Assembly: GCA_965203465.1 (NCBI GenBank) | Contig: CBDBCR010000002.1 | Coordinates: 32,001 to 96,000 of the forward strand | Reading direction: 5' to 3' | Length of the DNA stretch: 64,000 nucleotides | Origin: Nitrosopumilaceae archaeon | GTDB lineage: Archaea; Thermoproteota; Nitrososphaeria; Nitrososphaerales; Nitrosopumilaceae | Part shown: in pieces, positions 8,787 to 14,708 of the stretch | How positions within the stretch are numbered: position 1 is the first letter of the stretch | Layout of the letters: every line of letters starts with the position of its first letter | Program-made: the position numbers and the translations under genes | Notes under the pieces: generated by a model | What the model was told of the DNA's origin: nothing | Seen by the model: the letters and a program-made list of their open reading frames with translations, nothing else | Databases searched by the model: none

Positions 8787-8969
8787 GTGGACATGCAGTA
8801 CTCGCGCCTGACCGTCGAGGGGGACAAAAAGACGGAATGGATATGCGGCTGCTTTGAGACCATCGACGGGTACTTCAAATTCTGCCCGGGCCACGACGAG
8901 ACGCTGGCGCGCGCGATAAACTCGCAGATAGACGAGCTGGACATGACGCTCGTGCTCGACGGCAGCTAG
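8787..8969 (+). CDS. Small hypothetical protein (60 aa)
   Basis: WICGCFETIDGYFKFCPGH; normal composition. Confidence 0.65.
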   Translation: MDMQYSRLTVEGDKKTEWICGCFETIDGYFKFCPGHDETLARAINSQIDELDMTLVLDGS

Positions 8970-11014
8970 ATGGACAGCACCGCGACGAACGCCGAGACGA
9001 AGACGATGGCGATGGTGTTGAGCAGCTTTATGACGGTGTTGAGCGCCGGGCCGGCCGTGTCCTTGTACGGGTCGCCTATGATGTCGCCGACCACTGCCAC
9101 CTTGTGCTCTTCGGATCCTTTCTGACCCCTCATCTCGACGAGCTTTTTGGCGTTGTCCCAGGCGCCGCCCGTGTTGGCGAGGTGGTAGGCCAGGAATATG
9201 CCGGTGACCACCGATCCCATCAGCAGGCCGGCGACCGCGGTGGGCCCTAGCAGCACGCCCAGCACGATGGGAGAGGCGATGGCGACTGCCGCCGACTTCC
9301 ACAGCTCCTTGATCGAGGCGACGGTGGCGATATCGACGCACATGGCGTAGTCGGGCTTTGAAGAGCCGTCCAGTATGCCGGGGTCGGCCTTGAACTGCCG
9401 CCGGACCTCGTCCACCATGCGGCCGGCGGCGCGCGAGACGCCGCCTATCAGCTGCCCTGTGATGATGAACGGCACCAAGCCGCCGACTAGCAGCCCGACG
9501 ACGACGGCCGGGTTGGTGAGGCTGTAGTCCAGCTCCATCAGCCCCTCGAAGACGTGGGCCGCCTCGAACTGGAACGCCTGTATCATGGCCAGGGCCGCAA
9601 GGGCCGCGCTGGCTATGGCGAAGCCCTTTGTGACGGCCTTTGTAGTGTTGCCGACCGCGTCTATCTCGTCGGTCACCTTGCGGTTCTCCTCGCCCATGCC
9701 GGTCATCTCGACGATGCCGCCGGCGTTGTCGGCGATGGGACCGAACGCGTCGATGCTCAGCACGATGCCGGCGAGGCTCAGCATCGCCATGGCAGTCAGC
9801 GACGTTCCCAGTATCCCGTACAGGACCGGATCCGCGCCGGGCACCGCGGTGCCGGCTGCCGCCGATATCGAAAACGAGACGATGATGGCCGCCACCAGGG
9901 CGATCATGAACGGGCCCGTCGACTGGAGGCCCTTTATGATGCCGGCGAGCGTCAGCGAGGCGTACCCCCACTTTGCGGCCTCTGCTATCTGCTTTACGGG
10001 CCCGTACTTGTAGCTGGTGTACCTGTCGGTTATCTTTTGTATCACGGGGACCAGCGCCACGCCTATGACCGTCGAGCCGAACAGCGCCGTGGCCACCGGG
10101 GTAGATCCGAGCAGGTGCTGCGTGAGGGCAAAGTTGAGCCCGACGGCTATGGCAGCCGAGACGTAAAAGGATCTGTTGAGCGGGGCCATCACGTCGGTCA
10201 CGCCGCGCGCCCTGACCACGGCCACCCCTATTATGGAGGCTATCATGCCGGCGGCGCCCACCATTATCGGGTACATGAACAGCTCGGGCGCCCCGATCAG
10301 GGCCACTATGAGCAGCGAGGCCAGTATGGTCACGATGTACGACTCGTAGACGTCCGAGCCCATGCCGGCCGCGTCGCCCACGTTGTCGCCCACATTGTCT
10401 GCGATGGTGGCGGGGTTGCGCGGATCGTCTTCGGGTATGTTGGCCTCGACCTTGCCGACTAGGTCGGCTCCCATGTCGGCCGCTTTGGTGAATATGCCGC
10501 CGCCTATCCTGATGAACAGGGCTATGAGGCTCGCGCCTATCCCTACGCCGGCTATGGCTATCGGATCCTGGTATATCATGTACAGCACGGTTATGGCCAG
10601 CAGCGCCATGGCCGGCACGGCCAGGCCGACGGTCGCCCCGCCGCGGAACGCCATGGCGAAGGTGGCGCCCAGCCCGCTGCCGCTCAGGTTGGCCGCGCGC
10701 ACCGCCGCCTTTACCGTTATCTTTAGCGATATGAGGCCTGCCACCGCAGAGAGGGCCGCGCCCACGGCAAAGGCCACGCCGTTGGAGGGCTGCAGCAAAG
10801 CCCCGATGACGGCGGCGAGCCCCACGGAGACGGGCACTATTATCTTCATCTCGCGGCGCAGGAACGCGGCGGCCCCCACGCGCACCGCCTCGGATATCTC
10901 CTGCATGGCAGCGGTGCCTGGGCTCTGCTTCGATATCCAAATGGCCAGCGCGGCCGCGACGGCGAACGAGGCCGCGGCGGCGGCTATGGGCAGCACTTGC
11001 GCAAGATAATCCAT
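8966..11014 (-). CDS. hppA: Membrane H+-translocating pyrophosphatase, K+-independent type
   Basis: DMGADLVGKVE, DNVGDNVGD, GNTTKA (Lys variant), GGAWDNAKK. Confidence 0.96.
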   Translation of the reverse strand: MDYLAQVLPIAAAAASFAVAAALAIWISKQSPGTAAMQEISEAVRVGAAAFLRREMKIIVPVSVGLAAVIGALLQPSNGVAFAVGAALSAVAGLISLKITVKAAVRAANLSGSGLGATFAMAFRGGATVGLAVPAMALLAITVLYMIYQDPIAIAGVGIGASLIALFIRIGGGIFTKAADMGADLVGKVEANIPEDDPRNPATIADNVGDNVGDAAGMGSDVYESYIVTILASLLIVALIGAPELFMYPIMVGAAGMIASIIGVAVVRARGVTDVMAPLNRSFYVSAAIAVGLNFALTQHLLGSTPVATALFGSTVIGVALVPVIQKITDRYTSYKYGPVKQIAEAAKWGYASLTLAGIIKGLQSTGPFMIALVAAIIVSFSISAAAGTAVPGADPVLYGILGTSLTAMAMLSLAGIVLSIDAFGPIADNAGGIVEMTGMGEENRKVTDEIDAVGNTTKAVTKGFAIASAALAALAMIQAFQFEAAHVFEGLMELDYSLTNPAVVVGLLVGGLVPFIITGQLIGGVSRAAGRMVDEVRRQFKADPGILDGSSKPDYAMCVDIATVASIKELWKSAAVAIASPIVLGVLLGPTAVAGLLMGSVVTGIFLAYHLANTGGAWDNAKKLVEMRGQKGSEEHKVAVVGDIIGDPYKDTAGPALNTVIKLLNTIAIVFVSAFVAVLSI

Positions 11015-11151
11015 CCTACGCGCGCGCCGCCCGGCACTTGAAATATAAATCAAGGGCGGGGCGGGCCGATTCATTCGGCCTGCAAGGCCCGCCCGCGCCG
11101 GGAGGCGCGGCCCGCCGCGAGGCCGGCGGGTGCGAACCGGAAGCCGCACGC

Positions 11152-11542
11152 GGCCGCTATCAACTAGCGGCAGGCCAGCCGGGGCGCCAGCTTGGAGGCA
11201 CCAAAAACCCACCATGAATGACCGCTAGTAACTAGTAGTCATTCAGTACAGGCGGGGCTGATGACCGCTGGCAACTAGCGGCAGACCCGCCTAGCGCCGG
11301 CACGCAGGCGCCAAAAACCCACCATGAATGACCGCTAGTAACTAGCGGTCATGCCGTACCGGGCGGGGCCGACGGCGGCCGGCAACTAGCGGCGGGCCGC
11401 GGCGGGGGCCGGCCTGCAGGCGCGGAAAAGCCGCCCAAATGACCGCTAGTAACTAGCGGTCATTCAGTACGGGGCGGACGCAATTTGTCGCGGAAAACAG
11501 GTCAAGATTATATGAGTATGACCGCTAGTAACTAGTGGTCAT
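11152..11542. repeat. Array of 25-bp palindromes ATGACCGCTAGT-A-ACTAGCGGTCAT in three ~110-bp tandem units plus a promoter copy
   Basis: Strong copies 11218-11242, 11328-11352, 11439-11463, 11518-11542; degenerate copies near 11152, 11261, 11374. Confidence 0.95.
11506..11542 (+). promoter_or_regulatory. TATA box followed by palindromic operator overlapping the ATPase start
   Basis: TTATAT 11508-11513, palindrome 11518-11542, ATG 11541. Confidence 0.7.
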
Positions 11543-12683
11543 GTTTAGTTCCAGACCGAGGGACGACGTTCGTGCCCTCTTTGGCAGAAGCGACGAAATC
11601 CGCCGCCTGCGCTCCGTCATACAGAACAACGATCCGCTGGTGGTGATAACCGGCCTGCGGAGAACCGGCAAGACATCGCTGCTCTGCTCCGTTTTGGCAG
11701 AGCGTCAAGAGAGCGTCGTACGGCTGGACATGCGTAGCCTGGAAAGAAAGCGCCAAGCTACGAAGGAGGAGATCGCCGGCCTGCTGGCCGCCGGCGTCTC
11801 GGTGTTTCTCCGGCGCAACGCATCTAGCAGGGACAAGATTCTTGACACGCTGCGGACAGTCCGCGGCATACGGATAGCCGGGACCGGAATAGATTTGGGA
11901 CGGCAGGAGAAAAAAAAGTTGGATATGGCGGGGCTTTTCAGGCACTTGGATCTGTGGGCAGAGGACAACGGCACAAACATCGCGGTCTCGATAGACGAGG
12001 CTCAAGAGCTTGGCAAAGCAAGACACCTCAACATAAACGGCATGCTTGCGTCGGTCTACGACAACTGCAAAAACACCATGCTGGTGCTTGCGGGATCCGA
12101 GATCGGTCTGCTGCACAAATTTCTGGCCCTCGACGATCCGAGATCGCCGCTGTTCGGGAGGCACGTGCAATTCATAGATTTGAAGCCTCTGTCCGCACGC
12201 CAGAGCTCTGAATTCCTGAGGGCCGGTTTCGAAGAACTCGGAACAAGCCTGGACAAGAGCGCAGAGGACGCGATACAATCCGCCGCCTCGGAGCTGGGCG
12301 GAGTGATGGGATGGCTGAACCGGTTCGGCCTCGAGTGCGTAAAGACCGGAACCGTGGGCGCGGCCGAACTGAGATCCGTAAGGGCTGCCGGCTCCAAGCT
12401 CGCAAAGGACGAATTCGAGCGGTTCCTGTCCACGCGCACGGCAAGCGGCAGGTACGAGTCGATAATGAAGGGGCTGTGGCCGGAAGGATCGAACTGGCGC
12501 GCCCTCCGCAATTTCGTGCACCTCGATCTGGACAAAAAGATACACGACAAGAACTTTTGCGATCTGCTCGCGGTGCTGATAGACACCGGATTCGTAGCAA
12601 AGAAAGACGGCATGTACTACATCCCCGATCCGCTCCTGAGGCACGCCTACCGGCGCACCGGCAGGCGCGCGCGCCGATCCTAG
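11541..12683 (+). CDS. Archaeal P-loop ATPase (COG1672-like) with C-terminal winged helix
   Basis: LFGRSDE, GLRRTGKTS Walker A, SIDEAQ Walker B, GSEIG, PLFGR, C-terminal YYIPDPLL. Confidence 0.9.
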   Translation: MFSSRPRDDVRALFGRSDEIRRLRSVIQNNDPLVVITGLRRTGKTSLLCSVLAERQESVVRLDMRSLERKRQATKEEIAGLLAAGVSVFLRRNASSRDKILDTLRTVRGIRIAGTGIDLGRQEKKKLDMAGLFRHLDLWAEDNGTNIAVSIDEAQELGKARHLNINGMLASVYDNCKNTMLVLAGSEIGLLHKFLALDDPRSPLFGRHVQFIDLKPLSARQSSEFLRAGFEELGTSLDKSAEDAIQSAASELGGVMGWLNRFGLECVKTGTVGAAELRSVRAAGSKLAKDEFERFLSTRTASGRYESIMKGLWPEGSNWRALRNFVHLDLDKKIHDKNFCDLLAVLIDTGFVAKKDGMYYIPDPLLRHAYRRTGRRARRS

Positions 12684-13051
12684 GCGGCCTTTCTGCGCCT
12701 CCTGTACGGGGCGAAGCGGCCCCCGCGCATGGCGCGCCTTACCAGCGAGTTGAACCTCTTGCCGTGCGACAGGTACGGGAACCTCATGTGGACCATCTCG
12801 TGCGCGACGGTCTTTTCAAGCTCCGCCTCGTCGGGTATCTTGCGCACGTTGACGAATATCGTGTTGTGCCGCAGGTAAGAGACCCCGTAGTACTTGTACG
12901 CCGATGTCCTGCGGCCCGCGGTGTGCTCGCGCGGGGCCTCGAGCACCTCCTTCTGGGTCATCAGCACGAGCGGCTCCCGCACGGAGAGGCGCGCGGCGTA
13001 CACGCCGGCCATCTCGAGCACGCGCACGCGCAGGGCCGGGTCGAGCTTCAC
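12680..13051 (-). CDS. Small HExxH zincin-like protein
   Basis: TVAHEMVH...SHGKRF. Confidence 0.75.
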   Translation of the reverse strand: MKLDPALRVRVLEMAGVYAARLSVREPLVLMTQKEVLEAPREHTAGRRTSAYKYYGVSYLRHNTIFVNVRKIPDEAELEKTVAHEMVHMRFPYLSHGKRFNSLVRRAMRGGRFAPYRRRRKAA

Positions 13052-13113: not shown

Positions 13114-13632
13114 TCATACAGCCACCTTTTCATCATTCCCCGCCCGCATGCCGTCCATTATCTTTTGTGTCTTGCGCCGCACCCCCGCGTCCACCCGGAC
13201 GGCCACCATGCCATCGCCGGGCTGCCCGTAAAAGAGCGAGGCGCCGTCGGGCGCAAGCGCGCAGGCCGGCAGGGCCAGCAGGTCCTCCTCGCCTTCCACC
13301 AGTATCCGGACCGGCGCCTCGGACAAGAGCCCCTCGCGCACCGCCGCCACCGCTTCGTCCGAGAGCGTGCCGGCCGGGTTGCAGCACCTCTTTTGGACAG
13401 TCCCGGGGGGCAGCGGGGGCGGCGCCCTGGCGCCCCTCCGCTCGGCCCCGTCGACGATCTGCAGGCGTACGGGAACCTGCCACCCGAGCAGCCTCTCGGT
13501 GGTGCGGTCGCCCACCGTTATCGCGGGTGCAGAGACCTTGGACAGGACGAGCTTGCGCGTTATGGACGGCTCGGGCATCAGGCATCCGAGCGGCTCTTTG
13601 AGGGCCGCCCTCATGCGCCCGGGCAGCCTCAC
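13114..13632 (-). CDS. GTP-dependent dephospho-CoA kinase (DUF359)
   Basis: LKEPLG, TVGDRTT, NPAG, VEGEEDLLALP, YGQPGDG. Confidence 0.9.
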   Translation of the reverse strand: MRLPGRMRAALKEPLGCLMPEPSITRKLVLSKVSAPAITVGDRTTERLLGWQVPVRLQIVDGAERRGARAPPPLPPGTVQKRCCNPAGTLSDEAVAAVREGLLSEAPVRILVEGEEDLLALPACALAPDGASLFYGQPGDGMVAVRVDAGVRRKTQKIMDGMRAGNDEKVAV

Positions 13633-14708
13633 GCCTGCGTCTCCGGAGCCTCGGCCCGCAGCTTGGCGGCCAGTATGCTGCACTGAGCGGCTATGTTCTT
13701 GGCCGACGATTCAAAGGCGGCCGCGCTGGGCGAACCCGGATCCGAGATCATGATCGGCCTGCCCTCGTCGGAGCCGGACATTATGGAAGAGTTGAGCGGT
13801 ATGGAGCCCAGCAGCGGCATGCTGAAGCTTTGGCTGATGCGCTCGGCGCCCCCGCCCCCGAAGACGCGGTGCTCGGACCTGCAGTCGGGGCACACGAAAT
13901 GGCTCATGTTCTCCACCACGCCCAGGAGCGGGATGTTGAGCTTTTGGAACATGCCGATGGCCTTGGACGCCACGTTGCTTGCCACCTCCTGCGGCGTGGT
14001 GACCACGAGTATGCCGGTTATCGGTATGGTCTGGGCCAGCGTCAGGGGTATGTCGCCGGTTCCAGGCGGCAGGTCCACTATGAGGTAGTCCAGGTCCGAC
14101 CAGTTCGTGTCCACCAGGAACTGGCGCAGTATGCCGGAGATTATCGGGCCCCTGTATATGGCCGCCTGGTGGGACTGCTCGGCGAAGAACCCGAACGAGA
14201 CGACCCTCATGCCCTCGTGGATCGCCGGCTGAAGCTTGTTGTCCTCGACCTCCATGTGGGCGTCCTTCATGCCCAGCATCAGCGGTATGCTCGGCCCGTA
14301 AATGTCCGCGTCCAAGAGCCCCACCTTGGCGCCGCTCTTGGTCAGGGCCAGCGCCAAGTTGAGCGCGACCGTCGACTTGCCCACGCCGCCCTTGCCGCTT
14401 GCCACCCCTATGATGTTCTTGACCGTCGCCATGCCGGCGTCGTCCTCGAGCGAGCGGCCTTCCATGACCTTGGCCGTCACGTTCAGGTCCAGGGCGTCGA
14501 CGCCTTCCAGCTCGCCGACGGCCCTGCGCACGTCCTCTTCTATCTCGGCGTTGAACGGGCAGGCAGGCGTGGTCAGCTCCAGGGTGAATTTCAGGCTGCC
14601 CCCGTCCACCTCGAGGTCCTTTATCATGCCCATGGACACGATGTCCTTTTTCAGGTCGGGGTCTATGACCGTGGCCAGCTTTTCGAGCACCTGATCGACG
14701 CCGACCAT
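13629..14708 (-). CDS. apbC: Fe-S cluster carrier ATPase Mrp/NBP35
   Basis: LTTPACP, GKGGVGKS, DLPPGTGD, ENMS..CPDC. Confidence 0.95.
   Translation of the reverse strand: MVGVDQVLEKLATVIDPDLKKDIVSMGMIKDLEVDGGSLKFTLELTTPACPFNAEIEEDVRRAVGELEGVDALDLNVTAKVMEGRSLEDDAGMATVKNIIGVASGKGGVGKSTVALNLALALTKSGAKVGLLDADIYGPSIPLMLGMKDAHMEVEDNKLQPAIHEGMRVVSFGFFAEQSHQAAIYRGPIISGILRQFLVDTNWSDLDYLIVDLPPGTGDIPLTLAQTIPITGILVVTTPQEVASNVASKAIGMFQKLNIPLLGVVENMSHFVCPDCRSEHRVFGGGGAERISQSFSMPLLGSIPLNSSIMSGSDEGRPIMISDPGSPSAAAFESSAKNIAAQCSILAAKLRAEAPETQA

What the first reader, a model, noticed from the sequence alone, without database searches (positions are those of the whole stretch)
11152..12683. Palindrome array plus ATPase-winged-helix gene: candidate site-specific DNA-binding system
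Seen: the 25-bp dyad ATGACCGCTAGT-A-ACTAGCGGTCAT occurs as four strong copies (11218, 11328, 11439, 11518) and three weak ones (~11152, 11261, 11374). The last copy sits between the TATA box (11508-11513) and the ATG (11541) of a COG1672-like ATPase whose GC looks lower than its flanks. Established: this family has an ATPase plus C-terminal wHTH and is mostly uncharacterised; ATPase-wHTH next to iterated sites is the layout of Orc1/Cdc6-ORB origins. Inference: the protein binds the dyad and represses itself, and the upstream array acts as a loading platform (origin-, centromere- or titration-like).
Basis: partly seen in the sequence, partly recalled or inferred. Interest (0 to 1): 0.85.

Follow-up and report, generated by a model that had tools for sequence, protein, structure and literature searches.

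The report
Self-operator array before inserted archaeal ATPase
A small piece of foreign DNA in a sponge-associated ammonia-oxidising archaeon carries a DNA-binding ATPase gene of unknown function together with a row of its own probable binding sites, a layout that gives the first testable clue to what this widespread protein family does.

Summary
The 25-bp dyad occurs four times (0-2 mismatches), with three degenerate copies. All lie in a 111-bp tandem array and occur nowhere else in the 2.26-Mb genome. The gene encodes an SSO1545/PABY2304-type PF01637 AAA+ ATPase with a C-terminal winged helix.

New findings:
1. Array plus gene form a ~1.6-kb lower-GC insertion. It lies between two genes that are adjacent in 5 of 5 relatives.
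2. Across Thermoproteota, homologues carry their own clade- and paralogue-specific dyads. Usually these are two tandem ~19-bp units between the TATA box and the start codon: 22 of 46 loci against 1 of 89 neighbouring genes.
3. Upstream arrays are rare (1 of 46). The one other case is the closest homologue with DNA in hand (43% identity). It has 15.6 copies of a 22-bp unit holding an operator half-site, also inside an insertion.

Best reading: the protein represses its own leaderless promoter through the proximal dyad, and the array is an auxiliary binding platform for the same protein. Binding is inferred, not shown. An origin is not supported: orc1/cdc6 lies on another contig, there is no AT-rich unwinding element, and skew is flat. 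An iteron-like remnant of a mobile replicon is not excluded.

The parts
11055..12683 (.). Inserted cassette (about 1.6 kb; borders approximate): GC-rich edge, site array, promoter and ATPase gene
   Evidence: In 5 of 5 relatives the SprT-like gene ends about 60-260 bp before the H+-PPase start, and its stop abuts the conserved PPase TATA. Here the two genes are 1,665 bp apart. GC is lower than in the flanks.
11154..11470 (+). Tandem array, period 111 bp, 2.9 copies; each unit holds one half-site (weak dyad) and one strong dyad
   Evidence: TRF score 383, 79% matches; families D1 and D3; unit alignment A4.
11218..11242 (.). Strong dyad 1 (2 mismatches)
11328..11352 (.). Strong dyad 2 (perfect)
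11439..11463 (.). Strong dyad 3 (perfect)
11518..11542 (.). Promoter-proximal dyad (1 mismatch) between the TATA box and the start codon; probable operator
   Evidence: Same position as the dyads of homologues.
11154..11171 (+). Weak dyad 1, keeps the half-site CAACTAGCGGC (11161-11171)
11265..11282 (+). Weak dyad 2, keeps the half-site CAACTAGCGGC (11272-11282)
11376..11393 (+). Weak dyad 3, keeps the half-site CAACTAGCGGC (11383-11393)
11508..11514 (+). TATA-like box ATTATAT, 27 nt before the ATG (implies a leaderless transcript; inference)
   Evidence: The spacing rule is recalled general knowledge of archaeal promoters.
11541..12683 (+). Gene for a 380-aa AAA+ ATPase with a C-terminal winged helix (PF01637, SSO1545/PABY2304 type)
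   Evidence: Pfam. PDB sequence hits 2fna E 7.9e-47 and 2qen E 4e-38. Model pLDDT 91. Foldseek TM 0.87 and 0.82. Single copy in the genome.
11652..11675 (+). Walker A (GLRRTGKT, residues 38-45)
   Evidence: Invariant G38, G43, K44 in alignment A2.
11994..11999 (+). Walker B acidic pair D152-E153
   Evidence: Invariant in A1 and A2.
12438..12626 (+). Winged-helix domain (residues ~300-362; helices 302-311, 319-330, 336-349; wing strands 353-360)
   Evidence: Secondary structure of the model. Weak MCM_C wHTH match, 18.1 bits, below the cut-off.
11038..11054 (-). Conserved H+-PPase promoter (TTGATTTATATTTCA on the minus strand); marks the left edge of the insertion
   Evidence: Identical core in 5 of 5 relatives.
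8966..11014 (-). H+-pyrophosphatase gene (flank)
   Evidence: PF03030, E 3e-222.
12680..13051 (-). SprT-like gene (flank). Its stop overlaps the ATPase stop and its last residues differ from those of relatives.

Best explanation
The 380-aa ATPase-winged-helix protein most likely recognises the 25-bp dyad, probably as a dimer.

Promoter copy. This copy fills the space between the TATA box and the leaderless start codon. Bound protein there would block assembly of the transcription machinery, so the gene would shut itself off.

Upstream array. The 111-bp tandem array offers three more full dyads and three half-sites for the same protein. It most likely acts as an auxiliary platform. It could hold a local pool of protein, allow ATP-dependent oligomerisation or looping to the promoter site, and so sharpen or buffer the self-control.

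Origin of the unit. Array, promoter and gene together are a ~1.6-kb, horizontally acquired, self-contained cassette.

Shown:
- the sites, their uniqueness in the genome and their internal conservation;
- the conserved position of private dyads in homologues;
- the insertion.

Inferred:
- that this protein binds the dyad;
- that binding represses;
- what the array adds.
For: 1. Position. The dyad lies at 11518-11542, between ATTATAT (11508-11514) and the ATG at 11541.

2. Family rule.
- In 17 homologue clusters (<80% identity), the best palindrome in -50..+3 scores a median of 6, against 4 for 35 neighbouring ORFs. A score of 8 or more occurs in 8/17 against 0/35. Mann-Whitney p = 7e-6.
- In 46 loci, a tandem pair of units (at least 12/15 identical, period mostly 19) abuts the start in 22. 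The figure is 1 of 89 for neighbouring ORFs.
- AGTNACT, which is also the core of the window dyad, occurs in 18/46 against 1/89.

3. Private sites. The dyad sequence differs between clades and between paralogues of one genome: L006/L015/L017 of G040, L028/L030 of one Vulcanisaeta strain, and L031/L033 of another. One shared host factor cannot explain them.

4. Targets only next to the gene. The dyad and its half-site occur nowhere else in 2.26 Mb.

5. Selection on the array sites. Unit 3 keeps a perfect dyad (25/25 against unit 2), while the 74-nt repeat core holding it is only 64% identical to copy 1. The half-site CAACTAGCGGC is invariant in all three units.

6. Competent protein. Walker A and B and other AAA+ motifs are invariant. 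The model is confident and includes a winged helix. The closest folds are 2fna and 2qen, followed by DNA-bound Orc1/Cdc6.

7. Second array. The closest homologue with DNA in hand (L078, 43% identity) has two operators at -42 and -25 and a third copy at -109. It also has 15.6 copies of a 22-bp unit that contain the operator 8-mer GTACTACT. That overlap was reached by 21/5000 random 22-mers of the locus and 82/5000 shuffled units.
Against: - No binding or expression data exist for this protein or for any family member that I could find.
- The co-variation test gave nothing specific. Operator distance follows overall protein distance: r = 0.38 with the AAA+ part and 0.32 with the winged helix. 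The partial r for the winged helix is 0.075, reached by 115 of 2000 permutations (39 loci, 8 dropped for doubtful starts or truncation).
- Arrays are not a family feature: 45 of 46 homologue loci have none within the DNA held. The array may therefore be dispensable, or simply slippage.
- The window has one long dyad where most homologues have two ~19-bp units with a GGGGTA core. The equivalence of the two layouts is my inference.
- The promoter copy lies 79 bp (about 7.5 helical turns) from the nearest upstream dyad, which gives no obvious looping phase.
- The 46 loci include a few near-duplicates (for example L079/L080 and L097/L099). Kin are not independent, so the p-values are overstated.
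Confidence: 0.6

Rival explanations
1. The cassette is the remnant, or a still active core, of a small mobile replicon. The ATPase-winged-helix protein would be an Orc1/Cdc6-like initiator. The upstream repeats would be iteron-like origin sites, and the promoter dyad the usual self-repression site of such initiators.
For: - The unit is self-contained and inserted, both in the window and in G332. There a 3.6-kb segment with array and gene is absent between FEN1 and the PAS/acetyl-CoA synthetase genes in 3 of 5 congeners.
- Direct repeats hold one operator half: three CAACTAGCGGC in the window and 15.6 copies of a 22-bp unit in L078.
- Apart from the family's own structures, the nearest folds are Orc1/Cdc6 bound to origin DNA.
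- Thaumarchaeal cryptic integrated elements with Cdc6/Orc1 or a bare wHTH protein as the presumed initiator are described (PMC6563490, passages read).
Against: - There is no integrase, transposase or other mobile-element gene in the 1.6 kb.
- The window array has no AT-rich unwinding element; it is 60-67% GC.
- The 111-bp spacing is unlike contiguous iterons.
- Cumulative GC skew is flat (this is weak evidence in such a genome).
- 45 of 46 homologues have no array. They sit singly among metabolic genes, often as several paralogues per genome.
- No relative was found in viral contigs: 0 of 172 candidate stretches.
Confidence: 0.12
2. Only the promoter dyad works. The upstream array is a neutral product of replication slippage or unequal crossing-over of the operator region and has no role.
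For: - Tandem structure with 79% matches.
- Possible copy-number differences between strains. In run X4 one diverged contig joins 11366 to 11493, which amounts to one unit fewer. Another contig goes back 112 bp.
- 45 of 46 homologues manage without an array.
Against: - The dyads and the half-sites are invariant or nearly so, while the rest of the unit has drifted. Neutral repeats would decay evenly.
- A second, unrelated array with an operator half-site stands before the closest homologue.
- Of the six variant positions listed inside the array in other strains, none falls in a strong dyad or in an 11-nt half-site core. However, 144 further rows were not shown.
Confidence: 0.15
3. The dyads are bound by a different regulator, or they act on the divergent H+-pyrophosphatase gene. 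The link to the ATPase would then be only one of position.
For: - The array lies between two divergent promoters, about 100 bp from the conserved PPase TATA.
- There is no specific co-variation with the winged helix.
Against: - Relatives express the PPase from the same conserved promoter without any array.
- The dyad came in with the insertion and is unique in the genome.
- Homologues in unrelated contexts have dyads at the same place.
- Paralogues in one genome have different dyads.
Confidence: 0.08
4. The array is a centromere-like or chromosome-organising site. The ATPase would act as combined site binder and motor, as in plasmid partition loci whose repeats lie before a self-regulated operon.
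For: Repeats stand directly upstream of a self-regulated NTPase gene. In L078 the 22-bp period would put the sites on one face of the helix (the geometric reading is an inference).
Against: - The cassette sits in the chromosome with no replicon of its own to segregate.
- The protein is an AAA+ of the Orc/Cdc6-like kind, not a ParA, ParM or TubZ type.
- No partner gene is conserved next to homologues.
Confidence: 0.05

Closest known systems
SSO1545 (PDB 2fna) and PABY2304 (PDB 2qen), the 'archaeal ATPase' family PF01637
   Same: Same family by sequence (E 7.9e-47 and 4e-38) and by fold (TM 0.87 and 0.82 over the whole length): an AAA+ core, a helical lid and a C-terminal winged helix.
   Different: Both are structural-genomics entries. 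My searches found no function, DNA site or regulation described for them. The SSO1545 paper itself is not held. I did not examine the upstream DNA of these two proteins.
Archaeal Orc1/Cdc6 initiators at ORB origins, and the non-initiator Orc1-2 regulator of Saccharolobus
   Same: AAA+ plus winged helix. They are the next-best structural neighbours (2qby, 2v1u, 1fnn). Orc1-2 shows that such a protein can act as a transcription regulator (PMC6061795 and PMC9738581, abstracts in the listing).
   Different: - TM is only about 0.46 and identity 15%.
- There is no Cdc6_C match; the genome's one such gene is on another contig.
- There is no AT-rich element flanked by inverted ORBs.
- The target set here is the protein's own gene only.
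Iteron-plasmid Rep proteins (recalled: pPS10 RepA, R6K pi, P1 RepA)
   Same: An inverted repeat over the gene's own promoter, plus directly repeated sites upstream that share one half of it. This is especially clear in L078, with its 22-bp period.
   Different: Rep proteins have paired winged helices and no AAA+ module. Iterons are contiguous and lie next to an AT-rich element. The window repeats are 111 bp apart, GC-rich and chromosomal. The comparison rests on recall and was not tested.
Archaeal repressors that bind between the TATA box and the transcription start (recalled: MDR1, Phr, LrpA)
   Same: The operator position is downstream of TATA and overlaps the start.
   Different: Those are small HTH or RHH proteins without an ATPase. 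The comparison rests on recall.
Partition centromeres before self-regulated par operons (recalled: parC/ParR, sopC/SopB)
   Same: A repeat array directly upstream of the regulated gene.
   Different: There is no separate adaptor or motor pair, no plasmid, and the ATPase class differs.

Membership tests
PF01637 ATPase_2, SSO1545/PABY2304 type | Pfam model matched above the gathering score | tested here: met
   63.1 bits against a cut-off of 33.2, residues 14-255.
PF01637 ATPase_2, SSO1545/PABY2304 type | Intact Walker A and Walker B | tested here: met
   GLRRTGKT and IDEAQE are present. G38, G43, K44, D152 and E153 are invariant in 21 sequences.
PF01637 ATPase_2, SSO1545/PABY2304 type | Three-part fold ending in a winged helix, superposable on 2fna and 2qen | tested here: met
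   Model pLDDT 91; TM 0.87 and 0.82.
Orc1/Cdc6 initiator with ORB origin | Cdc6_C winged helix (PF09079) | tested here: not met
   The only genomic match is at C1:114018-114281, on another contig. This protein shows no PF09079 match.
Orc1/Cdc6 initiator with ORB origin | AT-rich unwinding element flanked by inverted ORB repeats | tested here: not met
   The array is 60-67% GC and the repeats are direct units.
Orc1/Cdc6 initiator with ORB origin | Origin activity (skew switch or marker frequency) | tested here: inconclusive
   Cumulative GC skew is flat across C2 and weak genome-wide. Marker frequency cannot be read from contigs.
Iteron-type replicon | Direct repeats sharing a half of the promoter inverted repeat | tested here: met
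   Three CAACTAGCGGC half-sites in direct orientation. In L078 there are 15.6 x 22 bp containing GTACTACT.
Iteron-type replicon | Contiguous iterons next to an AT-rich element, on an autonomous or integrated element with mobility genes | tested here: not met
   111-bp spacing, GC-rich sequence, and no integrase or other mobility gene in the 1.6 kb.
Self-repressing archaeal operator | Site between the TATA box and the transcription start of the regulator's own gene | tested here: met
   Position in the window. Same position in homologues against a neighbour-gene control.
Self-repressing archaeal operator | Binding of the gene product to the site, and repression | not testable with these tools
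   Needs a gel shift or footprint and a transcription assay.
STAND / MalT-like signal-transducing ATPase | Sensor repeat domain after the NTPase | tested here: not met
   The protein ends after the winged helix at residue 380. The nSTAND1 match is 16.7 bits, below the cut-off.
Known anti-phage defence proteins (PADLOC) | Full-length match to a defence model, and a defence neighbourhood | tested here: not met
   Only P-loop-sized matches, best E 1.5e-6. Neighbours of homologues are mainly metabolic or transport genes (25 of 49 matched families shown).

The most novel reading that the evidence does not exclude
The SSO1545-type ATPase-winged-helix proteins may form a large class of ATP-driven DNA binders. 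Each would be tied to a private site at its own gene. In ammonia-oxidising archaea one branch has expanded that site into an array and travels with it as a minimal 'protein plus binding-site array' cassette. That cassette may be an Orc-like initiator with its own iterons, that is, a previously unseen kind of tiny archaeal replicon or chromosome-anchored DNA-loading module.
Probability: 0.13. Interest if true: 0.85.

Novelty: new variant of a known kind. Interest (0 to 1): 0.62.

Why it matters
PF01637 'archaeal ATPases' are among the most common uncharacterised proteins of archaea. In this search 113 of 301 genomes of the phylum carried the subfamily, with up to six or more copies each. Two crystal structures exist, but I found no known function or ligand.

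A conserved, paralogue-specific dyad at each gene's own start gives a concrete DNA ligand for every member. It also gives a simple assay: gel shift, footprint and reporter, each with and without ATP.

The two array-bearing cassettes in Nitrosopumilaceae, both inside small insertions, show that the module moves together with its sites. They raise the question whether it only regulates itself or also loads something onto DNA. The first answer would explain a housekeeping oddity. The second would add a new type of mobile DNA-binding module in a group of archaea where few mobile elements are known.

Tried and rejected
- Homodimer prediction: no answer (score 0.00, below the mark). It counts neither way.
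- Sequencing runs: no RNA holder listed, so nothing can be said on expression or on the transcription start.
- Reads laid: contigs only. Near-identical copies occur in sponge and marine metagenome runs of 5 studies. The close variants' promoter dyads could not be read because most difference rows were not shown. The joints (one unit fewer; goes back 112) may be strain differences or k-mer graph effects.
- Upstream DNA of the close homologues P0001-P0005 (67-95% identity) could not be obtained.
- Viral contigs: 0 relatives among 172 candidate stretches.
- Rfam: only a sub-threshold chance match. The bacterial-type promoter and terminator scan was uninformative for an archaeon.
- GC skew: flat.
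- Partial Mantel test of operator against winged helix: no specific signal.
- Literature: searches for PF01637, COG1672, Arch_ATPase, DUF234, 2QEN, 2FNA, PABY2304, SSO1545, and for 'archaeal ATPase' with 'winged helix', 'palindrom' and 'AAA+' found no functional study of the family. The SSO1545 structure paper is not held. Supplements were not consulted.
- L105-L107 (family f1): divergent or weak homologues without the layout; L105 sits in an operon. L027 is a truncated remnant.
- Rejected as a CRISPR array or MITE: there are no spacers of unique sequence, no terminal repeats bounding the unit, and no other copies in the genome.
Full report
**Observation**

The pattern ATGACCGCTAGT-N-ACTAGCGGTCAT matches at 11218, 11328, 11439 and 11518 with 2, 0, 0 and 1 mismatches. 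None of 100 shuffles gave a match.

- The repeat finder and Tandem Repeats Finder show that the first three copies belong to a tandem array at 11154-11470: period 111 bp, 2.9 copies, 79% matches.
- Each unit also holds a degenerate dyad, centred near 11162, 11273 and 11384.
- An alignment of the three units shows two invariant blocks: the strong dyad with a few flanking bases, and the 11-nt half-site CAACTAGCGGC. The remainder is poorly conserved.
- The 74-nt core of the third copy is only 64% identical to the first. Yet its dyad is identical in all 25 positions to that of unit 2. This is the pattern expected of sites under selection.
- The fourth dyad stands 79 bp further on, directly after ATTATAT (11508-11514), and overlaps the ATG at 11541.

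**Uniqueness**

The window is C2:32001-96000 of a 2.26-Mb, 65% GC assembly in four contigs. The dyad (up to three mismatches), its core CTAGTNACTAG and the half-site CAACTAGCGGC occur only in this array. The gene is single-copy.

**The protein**

- The 380-aa product matches PF01637 ATPase_2 above the cut-off. It has a weak, sub-threshold match to a winged-helix model at residues 300-360.
- Its only solved relatives by sequence are 2fna (SSO1545, E 7.9e-47) and 2qen (PABY2304, E 4e-38).
- An AlphaFold model built on 21 sequences has mean pLDDT 91 and ends in a helix-helix-helix-wing module.
- Foldseek places it on 2fna and 2qen (TM 0.87 and 0.82). DNA-bound Orc1/Cdc6 follows at TM about 0.46.
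- Walker A and B and further AAA+ positions are invariant, so an active ATPase is likely.
- Searches of the paper library found no functional study of this family. Two papers mention SSO1545 only as a structural neighbour, and the structure paper is not held.

**The unit is an insertion**

In four genomes of the same genus and one of the same family, the SprT-like gene ends about 60-260 bp before the H+-pyrophosphatase start on the same strand. Its stop codon abuts a conserved PPase promoter, TTGATTTATATTTCA.

The window keeps that promoter (11038-11054, minus strand), but the two genes are 1,665 bp apart. The extra DNA runs from about 11055 to 12683. It consists of a GC-rich edge, the array, the promoter and the ATPase gene, and contains nothing else. 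The gene has lower GC than its flanks. No integrase or transposase is present, so how the DNA got there is unknown.

Near-identical copies of the stretch are held by sponge and marine metagenome runs of five studies.

**Homologues carry private dyads at the same place**

Close relatives (67-95% identity) exist only as proteins without DNA. Relatives of 28-43% identity with DNA came from genome and metagenome scans.

- In a first set, the best palindrome within 330 bp upstream fell between -42 and -2 in most loci, with a different sequence in each clade.
- After clustering at 80% identity (17 clusters), the best palindrome score in -50..+3 had a median of 6, against 4 for 35 neighbouring ORFs of the same loci. 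A score of 8 or more occurred in 8 of 17 against 0 of 35.
- A profile search of 301 genomes of the phylum found the subfamily in 113, often in several copies.
- The 29 new loci show the layout clearly: a TATA-like box, then two tandem units of about 19 bp, each a small dyad, often with a GGGGTA centre, ending at the start codon.
- Over all 46 loci, a tandem pair (at least 12 of 15 identical) is present in 22, against 1 of 89 neighbouring ORFs. The heptamer AGTNACT is present in 18, against 1 of 89. That heptamer forms the junction of the two units and is also the centre of the window dyad.
- A few of the 46 are near-duplicates and kin are not independent, so these figures overstate significance.
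- Paralogues within one genome have different dyads. A single host factor therefore cannot serve them all; the product of each gene is the simplest candidate.
- Neighbouring genes of homologues are varied metabolic and transport genes with no conserved partner.

**What did not support self-recognition**

Across 39 loci, operator distance correlates with distance in the AAA+ part (r = 0.38) at least as well as with distance in the winged helix (r = 0.32). The partial correlation for the winged helix is 0.075, reached by 115 of 2000 permutations. The dyads therefore diverge with the proteins, but no specific link to the recognition helix is shown. Groups with the same helix do share operators, which shared descent alone would also give.

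**Arrays are rare but not unique**

Of the 46 loci, 45 have no further copy of their operator within the DNA held. The exception is L078, from a genome of the same family as the window's organism. It encodes the closest homologue with DNA in hand (43% identity).

- It has operators at -42 and -25 and a third perfect copy at -109.
- From -640 to -295 it has 15.6 copies of a 22-bp unit at 99% identity.
- That unit contains the operator 8-mer GTACTACT. This overlap was reached by 21 of 5000 random 22-mers of the locus and 82 of 5000 shuffled units.
- The gene and its array lie in a 3.6-kb segment absent between the FEN1 and PAS/acetyl-CoA synthetase genes in three of five congeners. A fourth congener has a different, larger insert there.

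So in two lineages of this archaeal family the gene travels with an array of its own sites inside a small insertion. A third genome holds only a truncated remnant of such a gene.

**Origin, centromere or titration?**

- The genome's only Cdc6_C gene is on contig C1.
- The array is GC-rich and has no unwinding element.
- Cumulative skew is flat.
- No viral contig encodes a relative.

An Orc1/ORB-type chromosomal origin is thus not supported. An iteron-like remnant of a small replicon remains possible. The cassettes are inserted, they are self-contained, and they combine a promoter inverted repeat with direct half-site repeats. Thaumarchaeal cryptic elements with Cdc6/Orc1 or a bare wHTH protein as presumed initiator are known (PMC6563490, passages). 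Against this, there are no mobility genes, and the family at large sits singly among ordinary genes.

Orc1-2 of Saccharolobus shows that an Orc-like AAA+/winged-helix protein can be a pure transcription regulator (PMC6061795, abstract in the listing).

**Verdict**

The promoter dyad is very probably an operator, and most probably the gene's own. The array is most likely an auxiliary platform for the same protein. Its further role is open.

Earlier notes of this scan on other genomes report the same kind of palindrome before PF01637 genes, and one operator array. They are leads only. The family-wide count made here is my own test of the first of them.

The thing is a new variant of a known kind: a self-regulated DNA-binding protein with auxiliary sites, in a family whose function is unknown. 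Its value lies in giving that family a testable DNA ligand.

Noticed in passing
window 11057-11119: A GC-rich inverted repeat (12-nt arms, 92% complementary, 39 nt apart) lies at the left edge of the insertion, between the PPase promoter and the array. It could be a hairpin, terminator or insulator, or debris of the insertion event.
   Followed up: no
window 12679-12700: The ATPase stop and the convergent SprT-like stop overlap within CCTAGG. The last residues of the SprT-like protein differ from those of all five relatives, so the insertion replaced its 3' end. The last eight residues of the ATPase are low-confidence in the model.
   Followed up: partly
L078 861-1205 and 2766-2925: Besides the 22-bp x 15.6 array upstream of the homologous ATPase gene, a second, loose AT-rich 15-bp repeat (10.7 copies, 60% matches) lies just downstream of it.
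   Followed up: partly
L108 (G332:C1:103000-118000) against G203: The gap between the FEN1 and PAS/acetyl-CoA synthetase genes looks like an insertion hot spot in that genus. It is empty in three genomes, 3.6 kb in G332 and about 21.7 kb in G203.
   Followed up: partly
L076-L104, about -45 to -1 before each start codon: Many operator units of the family share a central GGGGTA between variable arms. This recalls the G-string of archaeal ORB elements (recalled, not tested). The window dyad lacks it.
   Followed up: no
window 11366-11493 (run X4): A diverged strain (about 87% identical in the gene) appears to have one 111-bp unit fewer, and another contig loops back 112 bp. This may be copy-number variation of the array or an artefact of k-mer assembly.
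   Followed up: partly
L027 3001-3627: Another Nitrosopumilus genome holds only the middle of a homologous gene (residues about 76-287; P-loop and winged helix are missing). It is a decayed copy without dyads or an array.
   Followed up: partly
window 13629-14708: The Mrp/NBP35-type iron-sulfur carrier gene upstream of the SprT-like gene is syntenic in relatives. It is a ParA-fold protein but not a partition ATPase, and is unrelated to the array.
   Followed up: partly
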